DNA from: a virus | IMG/VR virus record: IMGVR_UViG_3300037091_000121 | Coordinates: 3,203 to 67,202 of that record | Strand: one strand, 5' to 3' | Length of the DNA: 64,000 bases | In this document: in pieces, positions 8,697 to 52,564 of the stretch | How positions within the stretch are numbered: the stretch's first letter is position 1 | How the letters are laid out: every line of letters starts with the position of its first letter | Made by a program: the position numbers and the translations under genes | Notes under the pieces: generated by a model | The model's input: the letters and a program-made list of their open reading frames with translations, nothing else | Database searches by the model: none | Told to the model about the DNA's origin: nothing

Positions 8697-10069
8697 TCAC
8701 AACGAGCCCGCGACCCCAGTTGGGTGGGTAATCCCATGGCTTTCCCTGTAGCTACCCGTCAAAACCAAGTTGCCGGTCGCAAGGCCATCGGTTTCCCGCT
8801 GAAGAGAGATAGGCCGACGATTGAACCAGAGAACAGCAGTCTCTTTCTTATCGGCCATAAGGAACCAGCGACCATCGTTGGTCATATGGGTCATTACGAT
8901 AACCTGAAGATCGAGAGCGCGAATGGTGTTGGGGTCGTTGTCAGCAGTGAAGGGCCTCTGAATCGAGTTCACGATCCGCTGGGCATTGAACCGATCGTCG
9001 GTGCCCACCACGAGCCTGACAGGCTGAATGGCGAGCTTCCGGCCTCTCTGGTCAACCATACCCGAAGACCACTGGTTGAGGAGCGCCTCAAGGCTCTCAA
9101 TGGACAGGTCGGCACCGCTCGAAAGCTGGTTCGACCACGTTCCACCGTCAGCCCGGAAGTGGACCTGGGAGAGCAGGGGATAACCCGTCCCGTTAGCCGT
9201 ATACTGGACAGCCGTGCCGGCGTTGTTGAAGAGGTCCATAGCGTTGACCTCCTGCGTGTAAGCAGCCGCACGAGCAAGCTCTCGACCGAACTCCGGGAAC
9301 ACTCCGTAAAGTTCGTCCTCCATCGCCTCCATAGTGATACGGCACTGGAGAGCATACGTATTGTGGACATACGTGCGCTTCCACGCTTCAGCACCACTAT
9401 CCTGGGCCGCAGGCGCGCCCTGGGCCTTCAGGAAAAACTGGCCAAGACCAGCCATTACCGTCTCGTTCTCCTGGCCCTTAACGGACCCGTCGATACGGTA
9501 AATCTGCTGGAACTGCTTGACAGCCTCGAGCCCAAACCTTCGATCCCCTCGGCTCTTTATCCGAGGGCTACGAGTTTCCTCGCAGATGGGACTATCTCTT
9601 CACCTCATAGAGGTGCGGGGCACTCGTGGAGCTTTCGGCGTTTCTCGTCTACTTGCTCTAGTCTCTGAACCTTCCGAGAATTCCTTCTCGGCTTGGCTGC
9701 GGATTACCATGCCTTTCGGTTTAGGCTTCCCGCAATTCACCCCGTCTTCACTACCGCATCGCTACGGCAGGGAGCAGCTTTAATCCTACTCGTTAAAATA
9801 AACGTGCTCGCCCTTTACAAGGGTTTGGACTATCTCATCACCCGCTATGGGGTGCCGGACGCTCTAGCCTGTATTCAGGTAGTCTCTGAACCTTCCGCAA
9901 TTTATGCGGCTTGGCTGCGGATTGGGATTTCTCCGTTCCCGCAATTCATCCGGTTATCACTCCGGCCTCACGACCGAAGGGCGCCACTTTCAGGGCTACG
10001 CAGCCCTCTTTCGAGCTGATCCGCAACGTTTGCGGTTGTCATCACGCCTGAGGGAATAATCCCAGGCAT
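8697..10069 (-). CDS. Major capsid protein (gpT-like, HK97 fold), three exons: 10069-9998, 9806-9788, 9532-8697; 308 aa after splicing
   Basis: The spliced frame is open (927 nt): MPGIIPSGVMTTANVADQLERGLR|HVYFNEW|LEAVKQFQQIYRIDGS...MAGLGQF...YALQCRITMEAMEDELY. GAGG RBS before 10069. Confidence 0.85.
9533..9787 (-). ncRNA. Group I intron 2 in the capsid gene (255 nt, ORF-less)
   Basis: Core elements GAAUUGCGGGAA, AAUCCGCAGC, GUUCAGAGACUA, GAGAUAGUCC. 5' exon ends in U and intron ends in G. IGS AGCU-GCUC pairs with exon ends GAGU and GGCU. Confidence 0.88.
9807..9997 (-). ncRNA. Group I intron 1 in the capsid gene (191 nt, ORF-less)
   Basis: Same P/Q/R/S core. IGS GUG-GCGC pairs with 5' exon GCGU and 3' exon CAC; terminal G at 9807. 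Confidence 0.88.
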
Positions 10070-35019: not shown

Positions 35020-35667
35020 TCAATCCCTCAAAATCTCACAACTGCAAACCTGAAACCGTCCATAGCTAGGGCGAAAATCACCCACTCCGACCAGCTTTCC
35101 CGCTTGTGTAAGCACATCCCGAAGCACTTGCGGTTCGATATACTCTGGCGTCAACACAAGGAAGATGACTTTCGCCCTCCAACCTTTCTCAACCGCCGGC
35201 CGCTGCCGTGTGATGCCGTTACGCTGAACCACAACTCGGCGCTGATCGAGATAGCTCCAATCCGAGAGGGTTTTACCCGCCAGAGTGATAGGAGCCAGTT
35301 CGGTTTCCACAATCAGACCTGCTTTGAAGAGATCCATTGCGCTCTTTCTTGGTGAGCGAGGGTCTTGCCGAAACTTGGCTGCCCAAACGCAAGCCATTCG
35401 CAAATACTCTCCCGGCAATGCAATCTCGCCTTTCTCCGTTCGGTATACGTAGCTGTTCACGTTGTCCGACTTCTTGGCATCGCTCCCCTTGGCTGCTTTT
35501 GACTTCTCCTCTACTGCCTCACAGTTCCACCGATGGAATAGAATGGGTGTCGTGCCCTCAACCTCCACCTCGCAGCGATAGGGAAACGCCAAAAGATCCT
35601 CTGCGCCGTTGGAAACCTCCTCCAGCGCTGGCATAACATTACGACCATTCAATTTTGTAGCTACCAT
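35020..35667 (-). CDS. RAMP/Cas7-fold-like RNA-binding protein 1 (Vipr-like), 215 aa
   Basis: VEGTTPILFH, IALPGEYLR and the Gly-rich C-terminal loop VGVGDFRPSYGRF parallel RAMP motifs. Start placed at ATG 35667 (AAAGGA RBS); the ORF-track extension is the repeat array. Confidence 0.75.
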   Translation of the reverse strand: MVATKLNGRNVMPALEEVSNGAEDLLAFPYRCEVEVEGTTPILFHRWNCEAVEEKSKAAKGSDAKKSDNVNSYVYRTEKGEIALPGEYLRMACVWAAKFRQDPRSPRKSAMDLFKAGLIVETELAPITLAGKTLSDWSYLDQRRVVVQRNGITRQRPAVEKGWRAKVIFLVLTPEYIEPQVLRDVLTQAGKLVGVGDFRPSYGRFQVCSCEILRD

Positions 35668-35691
35668 AATAGTTTTCCTTTCAAAAAACCC

Positions 35692-35826
35692 TAACCTTAC
35701 CAAACCCCACCGGACCGGGCCGAACCCTACCACTGCATGCCACGCCGCACCCTTCCGGACCATGCCGATCCTTGCCTCTCCGGGCCGCGCCTCGGCTCAC
35801 CGCACCGCTCCTCGCCACGCCACACC
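35692..35826 (-). ncRNA. Family-1 pentamer array B (27 GGH-NN units) in the leader of RAMP-like gene 1
   Basis: 25 of 27 pentamers begin GG; strict 5-nt phase. Confidence 0.85.
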
Positions 35827-38325: not shown

Positions 38326-39141
38326 ATGAAGAGCAGCTTTTTGGCGTGGGCACCATTCCTATCGTCGTCTATTATGTCAGGGATTTGGTACTTCATCGGG
38401 TGGAAAGATGGGCGTAGTTTTGAGAGAAAGAAGTTTAACAAAAAGTTCGCTCCTTGGAGAGATGTGCCCCCTGATTCCAAACGCATAGATATGACAGATA
38501 AGGTGGGGGGCTATTGTGTTAAATGGTGGAAGCCTTCCAATCGCGGCTTCACAATTTTGGAATTACTCGTAGTAGTGGCAATCATAGCGATACTTATGGC
38601 CCTTCTTTTCCCGGCTTTCGCAGCAGCAAGGAGGCGAGTGCTGCAAACGTCGTGTGCTTCCAATCTTCGTCAGCTTGGTATGGCCATCTCGATGTATGCC
38701 CAGGACCACGACGGCTATCCGCCTATTGGTGGATACAATTACATTCCTCCAGCCCCTGCCCCGCAAGTATGGAACAGGTCGGACTGGGAAGACGGCCTGG
38801 TTGCGCTTGCTTACGTCAATAATTATAATCTATTTCGATGTCCTTCTGCCTCCAACAAGGATTACCGTTCAGCTTATGGAGTGAACCGATGGATTTTAGG
38901 ATGGGGGATCTCACAGTTATTAGACGCACCACCGTTCCCTAGCAATACTCTTTTGGCTACTGAAAAACAAGGTTCCGATTGGCCGGTTTGGTTACCTACC
39001 GAGCAGACAGGGAATCCTTACTACTTCCCCTTGGACCCCCGTCATAACAATCAACTCAACATTCTTTTCGTGGATGGACACGTAGGAAAGTCCATCATAG
39101 GGGAATTGATCGAGAGCAGCAACATCATTTGGAGATGGTGA
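38326..39141 (+). CDS. Prepilin-type N-terminal cleavage/methylation protein, DUF1559/H-X9-DG family (start uncertain)
   Basis: RGFTILELLVVVAIIAILMALLFPAF..AR....SCASNLRQLG.A..MYAQD, C-terminal RHNNQLNILFVDGHV. Confidence 0.9.
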   Translation: MKSSFLAWAPFLSSSIMSGIWYFIGWKDGRSFERKKFNKKFAPWRDVPPDSKRIDMTDKVGGYCVKWWKPSNRGFTILELLVVVAIIAILMALLFPAFAAARRRVLQTSCASNLRQLGMAISMYAQDHDGYPPIGGYNYIPPAPAPQVWNRSDWEDGLVALAYVNNYNLFRCPSASNKDYRSAYGVNRWILGWGISQLLDAPPFPSNTLLATEKQGSDWPVWLPTEQTGNPYYFPLDPRHNNQLNILFVDGHVGKSIIGELIESSNIIWRW

Positions 39142-39168
39142 TTGGCACGGTTCTTGTATATACTATGG

Positions 39169-39268
39169 TGCTAGTAGGGATGTTGCAATGCCGAGATGGG
39201 TGTTGCATGGCGGGTCTGGGAATAGCAAATCACAGTAGAAGGGTGGATGTGTAGGCATCTACCCTTCT
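39169..39268 (+). ncRNA. Family-2 guide-like RNA E (12 NNY-NN units + ATCACAG + hairpin)
   Basis: TGCta GTAgg GATgt TGCaa TGCcg AGAtg GGTgt TGCat GGCgg GTCtg GGAat AGCaa ATCACAG; upstream TGGCAC-N5-TTGT and TATACT. Confidence 0.8.
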
Positions 39269-39433
39269 TATATTTTAGAGAGAAGATGGAATGAATCACC
39301 TTGTCTACCTTTGGAGGCGCTATCGGGGCCGATGCTACCGATGCGGCAGGGTTCCTCCTCGCAGCCGAGGTAGGGTCTACTGCGAGGAGTGCTTTGCCAT
39401 CATCGTGCAAGAGTTCAAGATGAGTATGTCCAA

Positions 39434-47863: not shown

Positions 47864-49015
47864 TCAAGATGGAAACTGAAGCCCACCTGGCATTGACAGT
47901 CTGTTCAGCATAGCCTCTTGGGGGCGCCTAGTCTGGTTCCGAACGGAATTTTCACCACCTGGCTCATTGCCTCTTGCGCCGGCGCCTTGCATACCGGGAG
48001 GGCTCTGTGGAGAAGCCATCCCTGACGCGGTGTATCCAGGCAGGGGCATCGCAGGGGCATCACCAGCCCCGGCGCTAGATGGCTTGCGCTTCCTTTTCGG
48101 CTTATCTTTGCTCTTGGCCTTCAGCTTCGCCATGTCCAGGTGGTGAGCGATGATCTGATGGATAATGCTCATCGCGTGCATCATCGGATCGTGTTTCGGC
48201 TGGGGCTGTGCAGGGGCATCTCCTGCACCTGCCATACCCTGCCCCAGGTTCCACATACTTGTATCATGCGGGTTCATTCCACCACCAGCGCCAGGAGGGT
48301 TTAGAGAACCAGCCGTTCCGTTAGGAGAACCTGCTCCACCCTGCAAAGAGGCGAACGGATCGTATGGTTGCGGGATAGGGTTGGTGGAAGGGAAAGGGCT
48401 AGCGTTACCTGCACTGACCGCATCTGATGAGGATGTGCCGTCAGGAACCTCACCCCCACCCTTGTTCGCCTTGTTGTAAGCATACGCCTGCGCTACCCCA
48501 GACAGCGATTGGCCGAGATTGTTAGGAGGTGTAGCCCCTGGCCCACTCGCCATATTGTAAGCCTGCTGGTTCACTCCAGAAGCCTCTAGGAGCGCACTCC
48601 TCCGGGCCGCGATAGCGTCAGCCATGTGTTGTTCGCCGAGCGCCATTCTGTTCGACGCATCATTCTGCTGAAGATTAGCCATTTGGTCATTAGCACCACC
48701 AGTGGATACTCCACTGGGATTACCAAATGCGGAAAGCGAATTAACATTGGAACGCTCTGCTTGGCCTTGAATTCCTTGTGATTGTGCCAAAGAGTTTAAA
48801 TCTTGTTGGTTGCTCATTGGCGAGGAGGTGCCGTAGTTGTATAGCTGGTTGGCTATCGCTCTCTGCTGCTTTAGGGCTGCCTGCTGCGCCGCAGACATCT
48901 GCCCGCCGCCGCCTCCTAGAAGGCCCGCGAAACCAGACAGGGCAGCCCCTACGGGGCCTCCCGTGGCGAAACCAGCACCAGCACCCAAAATACCACCTAC
49001 TGGGCTTACAGGCAT
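47864..49015 (-). CDS. Putative ejection/pilot protein
   Basis: Gly-rich N-terminus GGILGAGAGFATGGPVGAAL..AGLLGG and Gln/Asn-rich body. Confidence 0.6.
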   Translation of the reverse strand: MPVSPVGGILGAGAGFATGGPVGAALSGFAGLLGGGGGQMSAAQQAALKQQRAIANQLYNYGTSSPMSNQQDLNSLAQSQGIQGQAERSNVNSLSAFGNPSGVSTGGANDQMANLQQNDASNRMALGEQHMADAIAARRSALLEASGVNQQAYNMASGPGATPPNNLGQSLSGVAQAYAYNKANKGGGEVPDGTSSSDAVSAGNASPFPSTNPIPQPYDPFASLQGGAGSPNGTAGSLNPPGAGGGMNPHDTSMWNLGQGMAGAGDAPAQPQPKHDPMMHAMSIIHQIIAHHLDMAKLKAKSKDKPKRKRKPSSAGAGDAPAMPLPGYTASGMASPQSPPGMQGAGARGNEPGGENSVRNQTRRPQEAMLNRLSMPGGLQFPS

Positions 49016-49079
49016 CTTGCGCCTCCTCCAAAACTAGAGGGGTTGACAATCAACCCCCACCCCGGTATACTCCATTGTT

Positions 49080-49173
49080 CTACAATCGATGCATGTCATG
49101 GCTCTGAAACGCCTTGCCGGTCCAGGAACGGCAAATCACAGCGGATGGGTTAGGGTTTTCCCTTTCCCATCCG
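49080..49173 (+). ncRNA. Family-2 guide-like RNA F
   Basis: Promoter 49043-49071; ATCga TGCat GTCat GGCtc TGAaa CGCct TGCcg GTCca GGAac GGCaa ATCACAG + CGGATGGG/CCCATCCG hairpin. Confidence 0.75.
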
Positions 49174-49872
49174 AACCTTCATCAATGCTGGAGACGACTC
49201 CGCCCGCTCTCTCTTGATGTTAAGTTCGAACGGCTTTGGCTCTGGTGCCTGCCTTGGCTCTGACCGAGGAGGCATATCATTCGATACCGTCGGTCGCTCT
49301 CTCCCTGCTTTGGCAGGATTGGCTTCAGGAGACTTCAAGGTCATAAACGGGTTCAGAGACCTTGGCTTCCCGATTGGCTTCAATGACTTCTCGTTAGGGA
49401 GGTAAGCCTTCGGGCCACCAGGGCCACCTCGCTTACGGGGCGATTCCGGGTTGTTGCTAGGGATCTTCGCTGACGGTTTTTTCCTTCTGGTGTAAACTCT
49501 TGGAGTTGTTTCTGGCGTTAGGGCTTGAACCCCTCCGGTCAATGGCACGGGCGGATCTCCTGACCCAAAAGACACAGGCTTGACCACTGGCTTTCGCCCT
49601 TTCGTTTGACCTAGAGGCTTGTTAAGCAAAGGGGCACTTACTTTTCCAAAACCACCCCTTGTAGGATGAAGACCTTTAGGACCGTTTGGCCCTGGCGGCT
49701 TCATGGCGGGCGCATCGCCAACCCCAGACATCCGACCAAGCACTGACTTCACCTCGGCAGGCTTGCCCTTGACTTTGACGGATAGCTTATTACTATCCTC
49801 TGGCTTCTTCTTGGTGGCTGGTCGCTTCGGGCTTCCGAAGTCTGTTGGTGCTGGCATAGTGGCCCTCCTCAT
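49150..49872 (-). CDS. Basic Lys/Pro-rich protein (start probably ATG ~49857)
   Basis: GAGGAGG RBS before MPAPTDFG; shares the GxGD[AP]P motif with the ejection proteins. Confidence 0.6.
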   Translation of the reverse strand: MRRATMPAPTDFGSPKRPATKKKPEDSNKLSVKVKGKPAEVKSVLGRMSGVGDAPAMKPPGPNGPKGLHPTRGGFGKVSAPLLNKPLGQTKGRKPVVKPVSFGSGDPPVPLTGGVQALTPETTPRVYTRRKKPSAKIPSNNPESPRKRGGPGGPKAYLPNEKSLKPIGKPRSLNPFMTLKSPEANPAKAGRERPTVSNDMPPRSEPRQAPEPKPFELNIKRERAESSPALMKVRMGKGKP

Positions 49873-50030
49873 ACATTATACTCCAAACTGGCACTTGACA
49901 CCAAGGGGCACCCCCGGTATACTCTCCCTGCCTGACAACCAAGGCATTGTCTGGATCTACAATGCAATGCCCGGTGAGGTTCTGCCCTTCAGAGCAGAGC
50001 AACTCAAATCACAGGAGGGCTTCAGCCCTC

Positions 50031-50077
50031 ATAATGCGGCAACTCGGTGGCAAGCCCGAGGGAGGACGCAGAGCCAA
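50031..50077 (+). ncRNA. Twister-like self-cleaving ribozyme 1
   Basis: UAA-UGCG-GC-AA-CUCGG-U-GGC-AA-GC-CCGAG-...-CGCA-GAGCC: P2 UGCG/CGCA, P4 CUCGG/CCGAG, pseudoknots GG/CC and GC/GC. Confidence 0.8.
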
Positions 50078-50156
50078 GAATCAGGCGTTCCTGGGCAGGT
50101 CACGTCGTTGATCGGCTCTGCAGGGCGCAGTCAATCACAGGTGGCCTTCGGGCCAC

Positions 50157-50203
50157 ATAATGCGGCTAACCAGTGGCAAGCCTGGTGGAAGACGCAGAGC
50201 CAA
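50157..50203 (+). ncRNA. Twister-like self-cleaving ribozyme 2
   Basis: Same core with compensatory P4 ACCAG/CUGGU. Confidence 0.8.
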
Positions 50204-50302
50204 AACCTTGTCTGGCCGGGTCCTGTTGGGTCTAGCGATGCGAGGCGAGTCAAATCACAGGAGGGATGGAAACATCCCTCAACTTCCTTCTAAGGAGACA
50301 AA

Positions 50303-50908
50303 ATGGCTGTAAAGAAGAACGACTCGGTAGCTATCCCCGAGTTCAAAACAACAAAGATGCTGGTTCCCATCGTTGGAGTTTCCCCTCTCTTGTGTAATCG
50401 AATTACACAAGAAGTGCTCGAAACTCTTTCTGGCGGAAAGAAAGAGGGCGAAAAGAAGTCAAAGGACAACCGGGGATGGAAGGAGATCGCAATGGATGGG
50501 GCGTATCGTCATCCCAAAACGGGGGCCTACGTATTCCCCTCTTCTGGGCTTATGAACGCTCTGGCATCGGCATCATACCGGATGGGTCTGACCAAGAGCG
50601 CGGTCGAAGTGTTCGCTAATGTCCAGATTGAAGATGAGTGGCTGGACATCCTTGGGCCAGCGCCTCGGGCTCGTCAGGACAGCGGCCGCAACCAGGGCAA
50701 GGGATTGGTCGCTGTGAACCGAGCGGAGTTCCCTTTGGGCTGGCATATCAATGTTCCTGTTCAATTCACTTCCGAGATGAGCGCCAAGAAGCTAGGGATG
50801 CTATTTGAAGCCGCCGGTTTCGGAGTTGGGATTGGATGCTGGAGGCCGGAGAAGAAAGGCCGCTGTGGACGGTTCGTTATTCAGCGCAGTGCTGGAAGCG
50901 ACCTGTGA
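50303..50908 (+). CDS. RAMP/Cas7-fold-like RNA-binding protein 2 (Vipr-like)
   Basis: IVGVSPLLCN, VFPSSGLMNAL, Gly-rich loop GFGVGIGCWRPEKKGRCGRF; TAAGGAG RBS. Confidence 0.75.
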   Translation: MAVKKNDSVAIPEFKTTKMLVPIVGVSPLLCNRITQEVLETLSGGKKEGEKKSKDNRGWKEIAMDGAYRHPKTGAYVFPSSGLMNALASASYRMGLTKSAVEVFANVQIEDEWLDILGPAPRARQDSGRNQGKGLVAVNRAEFPLGWHINVPVQFTSEMSAKKLGMLFEAAGFGVGIGCWRPEKKGRCGRFVIQRSAGSDL

Positions 50909-51417
50909 TGACATACAGGGCGAAGAAGGGATCTGGAATTAGCCACAAGGTCGCCAATGTGGTAGCATTAGAGATGACTCGATTAGACCCGGAAGGGGAT
51001 GGCATCACGGCTCACGCCCTTCACATATCGCAAAAGCCTATTGACATGCCGCTTCACTCAGAGTTTGAGTGGAGGGACGATTTCGCAGGATCGCTTTATC
51101 GTGACAGTCAGGCCAGAGGACTTCTCCGATGTGTATTCCTGGTATCAGATGACGAGGAAGGCACTCCCGCTTATGAAGGCAGGGCTTTTCTGGCAATTAA
51201 GGCTGAAGCCACGGATGATGAAGACGGGGATGATGAGTGCGCAAAGGTCTACAAACCAGCGCTTCTGGTCCTGAAGGACGAGAACCTGTCAACCCAAGTC
51301 ATCGACGATGCTTTGCGTCAACTGAAAGGTTGGCGTGACCGATGGCATTCTTACTCGGAGGTGGCTACTAGGCTTCAGAAAGTCATCTCGGCCATTGATG
51401 AAGTATTTGAACAGTAG
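50908..51417 (+). CDS. Partner protein translationally coupled to RAMP-like gene 2
   Basis: TGATG overlap; motif PLHSEFEWRDDFAGSLYRDSQARGLLR. Confidence 0.7.
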   Translation: MTYRAKKGSGISHKVANVVALEMTRLDPEGDGITAHALHISQKPIDMPLHSEFEWRDDFAGSLYRDSQARGLLRCVFLVSDDEEGTPAYEGRAFLAIKAEATDDEDGDDECAKVYKPALLVLKDENLSTQVIDDALRQLKGWRDRWHSYSEVATRLQKVISAIDEVFEQ

Positions 51418-51430
51418 GTAGATTTAACAA

Positions 51431-51512
51431 GGCGTTTTAGGGCCGGCCCATTCCTTGTATGTCCAGGCAAGTCAAATCAAATCACAGAAGCCCGGAGGAT
51501 ACCTCCGGGCTT
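51431..51512 (+). ncRNA. Family-2 guide-like RNA G4
   Basis: GGCgt TTTag GGCcg GCCca TTCct TGTat GTCca GGCaa GTCaa ATCaa ATCACAG + AAGCCCGGAGG/CCTCCGGGCTT hairpin. Confidence 0.78.
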
Positions 51513-51580
51513 AACCCTATCTTGGGGATTGACAAACAACCCCATTGCCGGTATAACCTTCTACAGTAGGGGTTGCCGAA

Positions 51581-52564
51581 ATGGCTATGAAAACCTACCC
51601 GATGGAGATTGGTCTTCTTTACGAGGATGGCAGCCTATGTGGTTACTACAGCCAGGGCCATCACGACCCGGAGATGTTTGTGGAGGCGGTCTGGCTGAGT
51701 GATGACCGAGAGATCGACGTATCCGAGGTGAAGCACGACTTCCGACGATGGGAGATTTGCTATGGGCCGGATGAGTGGGTGCGCTGCTTGAACACCCCCA
51801 GGGATGGTACCACTCGCAGAGGAGTATTTCCAGTGACTATAGTCGAATGGTACTGATATGAACAACGATGAGGCTAACGCCTTTATGGACGCACGCCGAA
51901 ACGAGCAGCAGTGCCTTATGTTGGACACCTGGGACACCAAGGATGGCGAGAAGAGATTCAATATCTCCTACTGGGCCTGGTCCGAAAAGGGCAAGAAGTT
52001 CCGCATCCACGTGCTAGCCCCAACCCTGGAGATGGCTGCCACCCTGGCTTTGGAAAAAGAGAATAGATTTCGAGATAGCAACAAAATGATTGTCGTGACG
52101 AAATGAAACAATGCGAGATTTGCGGGGCCTTGATTGAGACTAGGAGACAGAAGGCACAGAAGTGCCTTCTGTCTTGGTGCTCGGCTGGATGCTGGAGAAG
52201 AACCATTTGGGCTGGCTGGAAATGACCAAGGAGAACACAAGTGAGCTGGGATATCTACCTAGATATCGACACAGGAGGACCTAAACCCGCACAGGTGTGC
52301 GAGGTTGGGAATATGACGTGGAACGTTGACCCGATGTATGTGAGGGCAATGGGGATTTCACTATCTGAACTAGACGGTCGAATTGCAGGAGATGTGATGG
52401 CACACCTTCGAACCGGACTAACGAATATGGAGGACTGCCCTGACATATACAAGGAAATGAATCCTCCTAACGGGTGGGGAGATTACCACAGCGCTTTGAA
52501 ATACCTTCAGGAGATCACCCATGCATGTGCGCAGCATCCTCGTGCAACGATCAGGGTATGTTAG
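51581..52564 (+). other. Small hypothetical ORFs (51581-51856, 51858-52106, ~52103-52225, 52241-52564)
   Basis: ORF track plus manual translation; promoter TTGACA-N17-TATAAC at 51529-51557. Confidence 0.55.

What the first reader, a model, noticed from the sequence alone, without database searches (positions are those of the whole stretch)
50031..50203. Twister-like ribozymes punctuate the guide array (self-processing instead of Cas6)
Seen: two ~47-nt near-copies sit exactly between G1/G2 and G2/G3, with a covarying stem (CUCGG/CCGAG vs ACCAG/CUGGU). Established: the twister core is UAA-P2-GC...P4 loop U-NNN-AA-GC...P2'-GA-NNN and cleaves at U^A. Here the pseudoknot is GGC/GCC rather than the CCC/GGG or CCU/AGG of twisters I recall, and P1 is essentially absent. 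The predicted cuts (50032/3, 50158/9) fall 2 nt after each guide hairpin. That would release single guides and separate them from the downstream mRNA without a processing nuclease.
Basis: partly seen in the sequence, partly recalled or inferred. Interest (0 to 1): 0.9.

Follow-up and report, generated by a model that had tools for sequence, protein, structure and literature searches.

The report
Twister ribozymes cutting a phage guide-RNA array
Two small self-cutting twister RNAs sit between the three guide RNAs of a CRISPR-like VIPR system in a peat-soil phage and probably cut the guides apart, a job that published VIPR arrays give to hammerhead ribozymes.

Summary
Two 44-nt twister cores lie at 50032-50075 and 50158-50201 (+). 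Each starts 2 nt after the tail hairpin of a guide unit.

Both cores carry every conserved twister element except an open P1:
- the U^A cleavage site
- a 4-bp P2
- the GC/GC pseudoknot T2
- P4 with the GU-NNN-AAGCC loop
- a 3-bp pseudoknot T1
- the GAG motif

The copies differ at 9 of 48 positions, and 6 of these form three compensatory P4 pairs. A core model built from 65 other phage twisters scores them 41.8 and 39.2 bits (E 2e-8 and 1e-7 in the window). Rfam's own thresholds are not reached, but 10 other phage twisters tested also miss them.

The GGC/GCC pseudoknot is ordinary T1 covariation. P1 is reported dispensable for cleavage.

The "guides" are VIPR vrRNA-like units: 10-15 degenerate NN-xGY pentamers, then AUCACAG and a hairpin. 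They lie upstream of a Cas7-like Vipr homologue.

Hammerhead-interspersed vrRNA arrays are published. I found no twister-interspersed array in print, though this scan noted one on another genome. No cleavage data exist.

Verdict: a real feature, a new variant of a known kind.

The parts
49895..49923 (+). Sigma-70-type promoter TTGACA-17-TATACT that drives the array and the operon.
   Evidence: 11 of 12 consensus matches. The same promoter type also occurs at 49043-49071.
49930..50032 (+). vrRNA-like unit G1: 15 NN-xGY pentamers, AUCACAG, tail hairpin 50015-50030, then A and U. The predicted 3' end is U50032 with a 2',3'-cyclic phosphate.
   Evidence: The 5' end is inferred from the promoter, not mapped.
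50032..50075 (+). Twister core 1, with the predicted cut at U50032^A50033. Elements: P2 50035-38/50067-70; T2 50039-40/50054-55; P4 50043-47/50056-60; T1 50049-51/50073-75; GAG 50071-73.
   Evidence: pattern. (Twister-P5, 27.0 bits). (twister-P1, 20.7 bits). (R1, 39.2 bits, E 9.8e-8). (the minimum-energy fold gives P2 and P4).
50076..50158 (+). vrRNA-like unit G2: about 11 pentamers, AUCACAG, tail hairpin 50141-50156, then A and U.
   Evidence: Two variants lie in its pentamer tract (50118 C>T and 50121 C>A) in one DNA contig.
50158..50201 (+). Twister core 2, with the predicted cut at U50158^A50159. Same elements as core 1; three P4 pairs are changed compensatorily relative to core 1.
   Evidence: (23.2 bits). 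(20.7 bits). (R1, 41.8 bits, E 2e-8). (the differences).
50202..50281 (+). vrRNA-like unit G3: about 10 pentamers, AUCACAG, tail hairpin 50261-50280, then A. No ribozyme follows. The ribosome-binding site of the next gene lies about 10 nt downstream.
   Evidence: No Rfam match up to E 1 other than the two twisters in 48900-51700.
50303..50908 (+). Vipr-like Cas7-family RAMP gene (201 aa).
   Evidence: BLASTP E 6e-5 to the window's other Vipr-like protein, 35020-35763(-). That protein hits PDB 36pp_D, SUSP1 Vipr, at E 3.8e-4. This protein's own hit to 36pp_D is E 0.74. AF2 model pLDDT 79; Foldseek top hits are Csm3, Cmr4 and Cas7 at E 4e-6.
50908..51417 (+). Translationally coupled partner gene (169 aa), a possible vap. 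Function unknown.
   Evidence: The ATG overlaps the TGA stop. Only phrog_15946, of unknown function, matches. No Pfam family. Atlas hits are viral hypothetical proteins.
51420..51512 (+). Fourth unit of the same family (U51), after the operon and followed by a new promoter. No ribozyme.

Best explanation
The promoter at 49895-49923 makes one transcript. It carries three VIPR-type guide RNAs (vrRNAs), then the vipr-like gene and its partner gene.

A P1-less twister-class ribozyme sits between guides 1 and 2, and another between guides 2 and 3. Each folds through P2, P4 and the pseudoknots T1 and T2, and cuts its own 5' edge at U^A, 2 nt after the guide's tail hairpin.

The cut gives guides 1 and 2 a defined 3' end: tail hairpin, then A and U with a 2',3'-cyclic phosphate. 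The 44-nt core stays on the 5'-hydroxyl end of the next guide.

Shown here:
- the motifs
- the covariation
- the model scores
- the guide-like periodicity
- the RAMP fold of the neighbouring protein

Inferred:
- that a single transcript is made
- that cleavage happens
- that the released RNAs load the Vipr-like protein
For: 1. All conserved twister elements are present in both copies and match the Rfam consensus letter for letter outside T1 (alignments; pattern).
2. The copies differ at 9 of 48 sites. Six of these form three compensatory P4 pairs, and none touches a conserved position.
3. Model R1, built from 65 twister cores of other IMG/VR contigs, scores the copies 41.8 and 39.2 bits (E 2e-8 and 9.8e-8). 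The next best hit in 64 kb scores 10.4 bits.
4. In the alignment of 67 cores, 99.4% of 871 cells pair, against 82.5% in shuffles (0 of 500 reach it) and 8-38% with slid partners. Three of the 4 P4 pairs change on both sides.
5. The same GGC/GCC T1 occurs in five other phage contigs, most with an open P1.
6. P1 is reported dispensable for cleavage (PMC5408937, passages; PMC11662667, passages and abstract). The latter found about 94% of tested natural twisters active.
7. Context. Ribozymes occur only at the two internal junctions of the one tandem array. The three single units of the same family, at 49072-49175, 51420-51512 and 39160-39270, have none.
8. The units look like vrRNAs. One family member, U39, decodes by the 1-nt-skip rule to the adjacent gene at 21 of 28 positions, a score reached by 0 of 100 order-shuffles.
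9. Hammerhead-interspersed vrRNA arrays are published and reported as confirmed by sRNA-seq (10.64898/2026.04.26.720920, Results).
Against: - No RNA data exist. No listed run is RNA, and the laid runs were DNA contigs only.
- Rfam gathering scores are not reached. The twister-P1 search at E<=10 also "rings" in 10 of 14 control genomes, so that sub-threshold hit alone means little.
- Model R1's training set was fetched with a pattern taken from these copies' own conserved letters and filtered on T1 complementarity. R1 and the T1/P2 counts are therefore partly circular. P4 is the unbiased helix.
- Copy 2's nested minimum-energy fold is not the twister fold.
- No open P1. Only 8 of 77 cores examined have 2 bp or fewer, and two of those eight are these copies.
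- No ribozyme separates guide 3 from the mRNA, or the mRNA from unit U51.
- Four distant relatives of the protein (26-34% identity) have pentamer arrays but no ribozyme.
- The closer relatives (52-64% identity) sit on contigs I could not fetch.
- Whether a 44-nt core on a guide's 5' end is compatible with Vipr filament assembly is unknown.
Confidence: 0.75

Rival explanations
1. The twisters are active, but their main role is not guide release. They would tune the operon instead: cleavage leaves a 5'-hydroxyl, structured leader on the downstream RNA, which alters its stability or translation, or lowers read-through product levels.
For: Reviews suggest that bacterial twisters and hammerheads process mRNAs and polycistronic transcripts (PMC6765202, passages). 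Many phage twisters in my sample sit right after a terminator-like hairpin between genes, with no guide array nearby.
Against: Both ribozymes lie exactly at guide-guide junctions, 2 nt after each tail hairpin. The junction nearest the mRNA has none. The two roles are not exclusive.
Confidence: 0.1
2. The cores are inactive relics, or simply a duplicated DNA spacer. They look like twisters but do not cleave without P1. Host RNases process the array, as presumably happens in arrays without ribozymes.
For: Rfam thresholds are not met. There is no open P1. Relatives' arrays lack ribozymes. No RNA evidence exists.
Against: All substitutions between the copies are compensatory or fall in unconserved positions, which indicates selection on the fold. 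R1 gives E 2e-8 and 1e-7. P1-less twisters are reported to cleave at nearly wild-type rate (PMC5408937).
Confidence: 0.08
3. The conserved junction sequence is an internal promoter. ATCACA, 16 nt, then CATAAT would give each downstream guide its own start, and the twister likeness would be incidental.
For: The promoter scan lists 50008-50035 and 50134-50161 with 9 of 12 consensus matches.
Against: A promoter would not explain conservation and covariation of the 40 nt downstream of the -10 element. The phage's clear promoters score 11 of 12 and use TTGACA and TATACT. The ATCACA motif is part of the tail in units that have no -10 element after it.
Confidence: 0.03

Closest known systems
Hammerhead ribozyme-interspersed vrRNA arrays of VIPR systems, types I and V (bioRxiv 10.64898/2026.04.26.720920; Results text and the legends of figs S19 and S20 read; figures and supplementary data not seen)
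   Same: - A phage-borne Vipr (Cas7-like RAMP) locus without Cas6.
- Guides made of pentamer repeats plus a structured 3' tail.
- A small self-cleaving ribozyme between adjacent guides.
   Different: - The ribozyme class is twister, not hammerhead.
- The pentamer's fixed triplet is degenerate (xGY, not GGY).
- The tail is AUCACAG plus a simple hairpin.
- The array lies upstream of the genes, and its last junction has no ribozyme.
- I could not assign the VIPR type.
Type-P1 twister ribozymes (Rfam RF03160, clan CL00120) and the engineered "mini-twister" lacking P1 (PMC5408937, passages)
   Same: The U^A site, P2, T2, P4 with its loop L4, T1 and GAG are in the same linear order as type P1. As in the mini-twister, there is no P1 helix.
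   Different: - There is no 3' strand for P1.
- A closed hairpin belonging to the upstream guide abuts the cleavage site. Rfam's Twister-P5 model aligns that hairpin as its closed P1.
- Scores fall below Rfam's gathering cut-offs.
Other phage twisters in IMG/VR contigs (loci L005-L127)
   Same: Same core. Five carry the identical GGC/GCC T1. Six cores (in L021, L026 twice, L032, L074 and L105) also have an open P1 of 2 bp or less. L009 (open P1 3 bp with skips allowed) also has a closed hairpin 1 nt before UAA.
   Different: None of the 82 twisters in those loci has a convincing pentamer-periodic tract within 120 nt.
Engineered ribozyme-flanked guide RNA arrays for CRISPR (hammerhead and HDV flanks; recalled from memory, no paper read)
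   Same: The logic is the same: self-cleaving RNAs release single guides from one transcript without a processing nuclease.
   Different: Those are artificial and use two ribozymes per guide. Here the arrangement is natural, with one twister per junction.

Membership tests
Twister ribozyme (Rfam clan CL00120) | U-A cleavage dinucleotide followed by A and the 5' strand of a short P2, pairing with a 3' strand just before GAG | tested here: met
   UAA-UGCG pairs with CGCA-GAG in both copies. P2 is 100% paired in the 67-core alignment. Three of its 4 pairs were fixed by the fetch pattern; the fourth covaries as A-U (48) or G-C (19).
Twister ribozyme (Rfam clan CL00120) | P4 hairpin with the conserved loop G-U-NNN-A-A-G-C-C | tested here: met
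   Both copies read GUGGCAAGCC. The P4 stems are CUCG/CGAG and ACCA/UGGU plus an invariant G-C. Three of the 4 P4 pairs covary in the family alignment.
Twister ribozyme (Rfam clan CL00120) | Pseudoknot T2: GC after P2 pairs with the GC of AAGC | tested here: met
   The bases are present in both copies and invariant in all 67 cores. Invariant pairs give no covariation support.
Twister ribozyme (Rfam clan CL00120) | Pseudoknot T1: three loop bases are complementary to the last G of GAG plus the two bases after it | tested here: met
   GGC pairs with GCC. Across 119 pattern hits T1 takes many complementary forms. The alignment used was filtered on this complementarity, so only one search counts as evidence.
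Twister ribozyme (Rfam clan CL00120) | Open P1 helix flanking the core (type P1) | tested here: not met
   2 bp and 0 bp with skips allowed. P1 is reported dispensable for activity (PMC5408937; PMC11662667). A closed hairpin ends 1 nt before the U.
Twister ribozyme (Rfam clan CL00120) | Score at or above Rfam's gathering cut-off | tested here: not met
   Twister-P5 scores 27.0 and 23.2 bits against 37.6. twister-P1 scores 20.7 bits against 67.2. In 11 other loci, 10 twisters scored 35.1-57.8 bits, all below 67.2, and one (L009) was not listed at E<=0.01.
Twister ribozyme (Rfam clan CL00120) | Site-specific self-cleavage giving 2',3'-cyclic phosphate and 5'-OH ends | not testable with these tools
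   No RNA run is listed.
VIPR system with a ribozyme-vrRNA array | Vipr protein: a minimal Cas7-like RAMP | tested here: met
   Foldseek top hits are Csm3, Cmr4 and Cas7, E 4e-6, probability 1.00. BLASTP gives E 6e-5 to the window's other Vipr-like protein, which matches PDB SUSP1 Vipr at E 3.8e-4. The direct match is only E 0.74.
VIPR system with a ribozyme-vrRNA array | vrRNA: 9-16 pentamer repeats of GGY/NN "or a related consensus", followed by a conserved structured 3' tail | tested here: met
   There are 10-15 pentamers per unit. Position 5 is Y in 88% of 73 pentamers and never G. Position 4 is G in 64% of 72. All six units share an invariant AATCACAG followed by a hairpin. The triplet is more degenerate than GGY.
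VIPR system with a ribozyme-vrRNA array | Guides decode to DNA targets by the 1-nt-skip rule | tested here: inconclusive
   G1-G3 have no better-than-shuffled match inside the window (74, 93 and 63 of 100 shuffles do as well). U39 matches the adjacent gene at 21 of 28 positions, reached by 0 of 100 shuffles. Outside targets were not searched.
VIPR system with a ribozyme-vrRNA array | Accessory vap gene next to vipr | tested here: inconclusive
   A translationally coupled 169-aa gene follows, but it has no recognisable family.
VIPR system with a ribozyme-vrRNA array | The interspersed ribozyme is a hammerhead, as published | tested here: not met
   No hammerhead up to E 1 in 48900-51700. The elements are twisters.

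The most novel reading that the evidence does not exclude
The guide's own tail hairpin serves as the twister's P1. That would be a fourth twister topology. The whole P1 is a closed hairpin 5' of the cut, and the chain leaves straight after T1.

Two consequences would follow. Cleavage would be gated by correct folding of the guide's protein-binding tail. And the finished guide would be released without unwinding any helix.

The retained core would in turn act as a structured 5'-OH cap on the next guide.

Rfam's Twister-P5 model already aligns the hairpin as its closed P1. Two other P1-less phage twisters, in L074 and L105, also have a strong hairpin ending 0-2 nt before the U, and so does L009 (open P1 3 bp with skips allowed).

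However, hairpins that close are about as common upstream of twisters that do have an open P1: 20 of 57, against 10 of 20. The idea therefore has no statistical support yet.
Probability: 0.25. Interest if true: 0.6.

Novelty: new variant of a known kind. Interest (0 to 1): 0.5.

Why it matters
The biological role of bacterial and phage twister ribozymes has stayed open since their discovery. [quoted passage not shown] The abstract of PMC8501958, seen in a search listing, says "no confirmed biological function".

Here a twister has a concrete, testable job: cutting a natural guide-RNA array into units for an RNA-guided DNA-silencing system.

It also shows that VIPR arrays have solved the processing problem with at least two unrelated ribozyme classes. 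A distant relative (L129) appears to use tRNA-like separators as well.

The compact P1-less core, which leaves only two extra nucleotides on the guide's 3' end, could be useful for multiplexed guide expression.

Tried and rejected
- RNA evidence. No RNA holder was listed for the stretch. Laying four DNA-contig runs gave only two variants, in guide 2, and contig breaks inside the repeats. Neither bears on cleavage.

- Conservation in relatives. It gave nothing in viral contigs or in genome contigs. The four loci have NN-AGC pentamer arrays but no ribozyme by Rfam at E<=0.1, none by model R1 and no tRNA by ARAGORN.

- Other twister-plus-guide arrays.
  - A strict xGY periodicity scan found none within 300 nt of twisters in the fetched loci.
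  - A looser scan is too permissive: 795 windows in 2.18 Mb of scanned sequence (both strands). Its four near-twister hits look like chance.
Only one hit continues into a full twister (L015), and that one is not guide-like.

- Hairpin as a P1 surrogate. No enrichment was seen. My first P1 measure missed P1 helices with a bulged A, so I redid the count.

- Self-targets of G1-G3 inside the window: none above shuffled controls.

- I did not search decoded guide patterns against public collections, because that would have meant typing a changed sequence.

- Papers. "twister" occurs 0 times in the three VIPR preprints. No paper holds both "twister" and "vrRNA". Supplementary figures and data of 10.64898/2026.04.26.720920 (fig. 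S19, data S4) were not visible and could hold twister arrays.

Full report
WHAT IS THERE

The window comes from an IMG/VR virus record of 67,202 nt. DNA runs labelled peat metagenome hold it.

At 49895-49923 lies a near-consensus promoter, TTGACA-17-TATACT. Five elements follow on the + strand before the gene at 50303-50908:
- unit G1, to 50031
- a 48-nt element at 50032-50079
- unit G2, to 50157
- a second 48-nt element at 50158-50205
- unit G3, to 50281

A ribosome-binding site and the gene come next.

IS THE REPEAT REAL AND NON-RANDOM?

Yes. The pattern TAATGCGGC..GCAAGCC..CGCAGAGCC matches exactly twice. None of 100 shuffles gives a match. A looser form finds only these two in the whole record, and the reversed-pattern control finds none.

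The copies differ at 9 of 48 positions. Six of these make three compensatory pairs in one stem: C-G>A-U, U-A>C-G and G-C>A-U. The other three lie in linkers. Nine randomly placed changes give that picture about 2 times in 10,000.

IS IT A TWISTER?

Read against the Rfam consensus printed, each copy has:
- the U-A site followed by A
- a 4-bp P2 (UGCG/CGCA)
- the GC that forms T2 with the GC of AAGC
- a P4 stem closed by G-C
- the loop GU-NNN-AAGCC
- GAG followed by two bases that complete a 3-bp T1 (GGC/GCC)

At Rfam's gathering thresholds the whole-window scan finds only two group I introns. Below threshold:
- Twister-P5 scores 27.0 and 23.2 bits (E 0.0012 and 0.012 on 501 nt; cut-off 37.6).
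- twister-P1 scores 20.7 bits for each copy (cut-off 67.2).

The control shows that hits at E<=10 occur in 10 of 14 ordinary genomes. That hit alone is therefore weak evidence.

To get a fairer yardstick I fetched twister-pattern matches from IMG/VR. Among 119 distinct hits, T1 is complementary in many forms: CAC/GTG 25, GAC/GTC 15, TCC/GGA 13, TAC/GTA 10, GGC/GCC 7, and others.

I aligned 65 of the 66 short, T1-complementary cores with the two window copies; L021 was dropped as a likely chance match.
- 99.4% of 871 cells pair, against 82.5% in shuffles (0 of 500 reach it) and 8-38% with slid partners.
- Three of the 4 P4 pairs change on both sides.
- T1, and three of the four P2 pairs, were fixed by how I fetched and filtered the set. 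P4 is the unbiased helix.

A covariance model of the 65 foreign cores (R1) scores the window copies 41.8 and 39.2 bits (E 2e-8 and 9.8e-8). The next hit scores 10.4 bits.

Rfam run on 11 of the foreign loci of their twisters at 35.1-57.8 bits, all below the 67.2 cut-off. It misses L009, which like ours has GGC/GCC and an upstream hairpin. Failing Rfam's cut-off is therefore normal for these short phage twisters.

THE MISSING P1

Allowing 0-2 skipped bases on each side, open P1 is 2 bp for copy 1 and 0 bp for copy 2. Among 77 cores, 8 have 2 bp or less: these two copies plus L021, L026 (twice), L032, L074 and L105.

P1 is reported to be dispensable. The 2016 twister review says P1-less twisters cleave a single nucleoside at almost wild-type rate (PMC5408937, passages). 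The high-throughput study found that P1 imperfections had no effect and that about 94% of natural twisters tested were active (PMC11662667, passages and abstract).

In both window copies the guide's tail hairpin ends 1 nt before the U. Rfam's Twister-P5 model aligns that hairpin as its closed P1. Whether it really stacks in P1's place is open. Close upstream hairpins are not enriched among cores with a short P1: 10 of 20, against 20 of 57 for the others.

WHAT ARE THE "GUIDES"?

Six units in the window share an invariant AATCACAG followed by a hairpin of variable sequence: G1-G3, 49072-49175, 51420-51512 and 39160-39270.

Upstream of that tail each has 10-15 pentamers of the form NN-xGY. Position 5 is a pyrimidine in 88% of 73 pentamers and never G. 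Position 4 is G in 64% of 72. The NN positions look like background.

I read the Results of bioRxiv 10.64898/2026.04.26.720920.
- vrRNAs are 9-16 pentamer repeats (GGY/NN "or a related consensus") plus a structured 3' tail.
- They are bound by a minimal Cas7-like Vipr protein.
- They read DNA with a 1-nt skip.
- "Hammerhead ribozyme-interspersed arrays" exist in types I and V and were confirmed by sRNA-seq.

The protein at 50303-50908 fits this picture.
- BLASTP gives E 6e-5 to the window's other Vipr-like protein, which matches PDB 36pp_D "SUSP1 Vipr protein" at E 3.8e-4. Its own match to that chain is E 0.74.
- An AF2 model (pLDDT 79, from 8 sequences) finds Csm3, Cmr4 and Cas7 chains at E 4e-6.

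By the skip rule, unit U39 matches the adjacent gene at 21 of 28 positions, reached by 0 of 100 order-shuffles. G1-G3 have no above-chance match in the window. That is expected if they aim at other elements.

HOW IT MOST LIKELY WORKS

One transcript runs from the promoter. Each twister folds and cuts at its own 5' edge. Guide 1 and guide 2 then end in tail hairpin, A and U with a cyclic phosphate. Each core stays on the 5'-OH end of the next guide.

Three observations fit a processing role:
- Only the tandem array has ribozymes.
- The three single units have none.
- The cut lands just outside the tail. In SUSP1 the 3' tail caps the filament (10.64898/2026.04.26.720927, passages).

Left unexplained:
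- The G3-mRNA junction and the mRNA-U51 junction have no ribozyme.
- The fate of the retained core is unknown.

WHAT SPEAKS AGAINST

- There is no RNA evidence.
- Copy 2's nested minimum-energy fold is not the twister fold.
- The full leader folds well (z -3.19) but not in the twister form for copy 1. These programs ignore pseudoknots.
- Distant relatives' arrays lack ribozymes.
- The closest relatives could not be inspected.

NOVELTY

Ribozyme-cut vrRNA arrays are published with hammerheads. I found no mention of twisters in the three VIPR preprints, and no paper with both "twister" and "vrRNA".

This scan has already reported twisters between VIPR guides on another genome (e1-6160874), and tRNA-like separators on a third (e1-6055473).

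I rate this a new variant of a known kind, with moderate interest.

Noticed in passing
L129:4600-5130 (metagenome locus that encodes a 33%-identical Vipr-like protein): The pentamer (NN-AGC) guide array downstream of the gene is punctuated by tRNA-like minihelices: an acceptor-like stem plus a T-arm with GGTTCGACTCC or GGTTCAACTCC. This suggests processing by host RNase P or RNase Z instead of a ribozyme. ARAGORN calls no tRNA there. An earlier scan note (e1-6055473) describes the same idea on another genome.
   Followed up: partly
window 9568-10011 (-): Two tandem group I introns score above Rfam's gathering cut-off (89.3 and 63.9 bits).
   Followed up: no
window 39160-39270 (+) and 38869-38909 (+): A stand-alone family-2 unit (U39), 11 kb from the Vipr-like gene, decodes by the 1-nt-skip rule to the gene just upstream of it. 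The match is 21 of 28 positions, reached by 0 of 100 order-shuffles. A near-match to the phage's own gene suggests it targets a rival allele.
   Followed up: partly
window 49043-49175 (+): A consensus promoter plus a family-2 unit (U49) lies antisense to the end of the minus-strand gene 49150-49872. Its 13-bp tail hairpin overlaps that gene's stop codon. It has no above-chance skip-rule match in the window (16 of 24; 86 of 100 shuffles do as well).
   Followed up: partly
IMG/VR loci L005-L127: Many phage twisters sit directly after a strong terminator-like hairpin, with only a 3-5-bp P1. These loci also carry hatchet, hammerhead type II and RAGATH-22 RNAs. Together this suggests a general ribozyme-defined 3'-end arrangement in phages.
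   Followed up: partly
L078:548-3161 and L017:10886-10930: A subgroup of twister-pattern hits has a closed upstream hairpin, a loop reading CAC or TGC, and GAGGA-GC(C/T)ACC after P2'. The usual T1 complementarity is therefore absent. L078 carries three such copies, spaced about 1.2-1.4 kb apart. This may be a variant T1 register or a different class.
   Followed up: no
window 50118 and 50121: The only two variants seen in a near-identical contig of run X4 (C>T and C>A) lie in the pentamer tract of guide 2. None lies in the twisters or the tails.
   Followed up: no
window 50008-50035 and 50134-50161: A weak promoter-like site, ATCACA-16-CATAAT (9 of 12 matches), is formed by the guide tail plus the first bases of each twister. 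It is probably incidental.
   Followed up: partly
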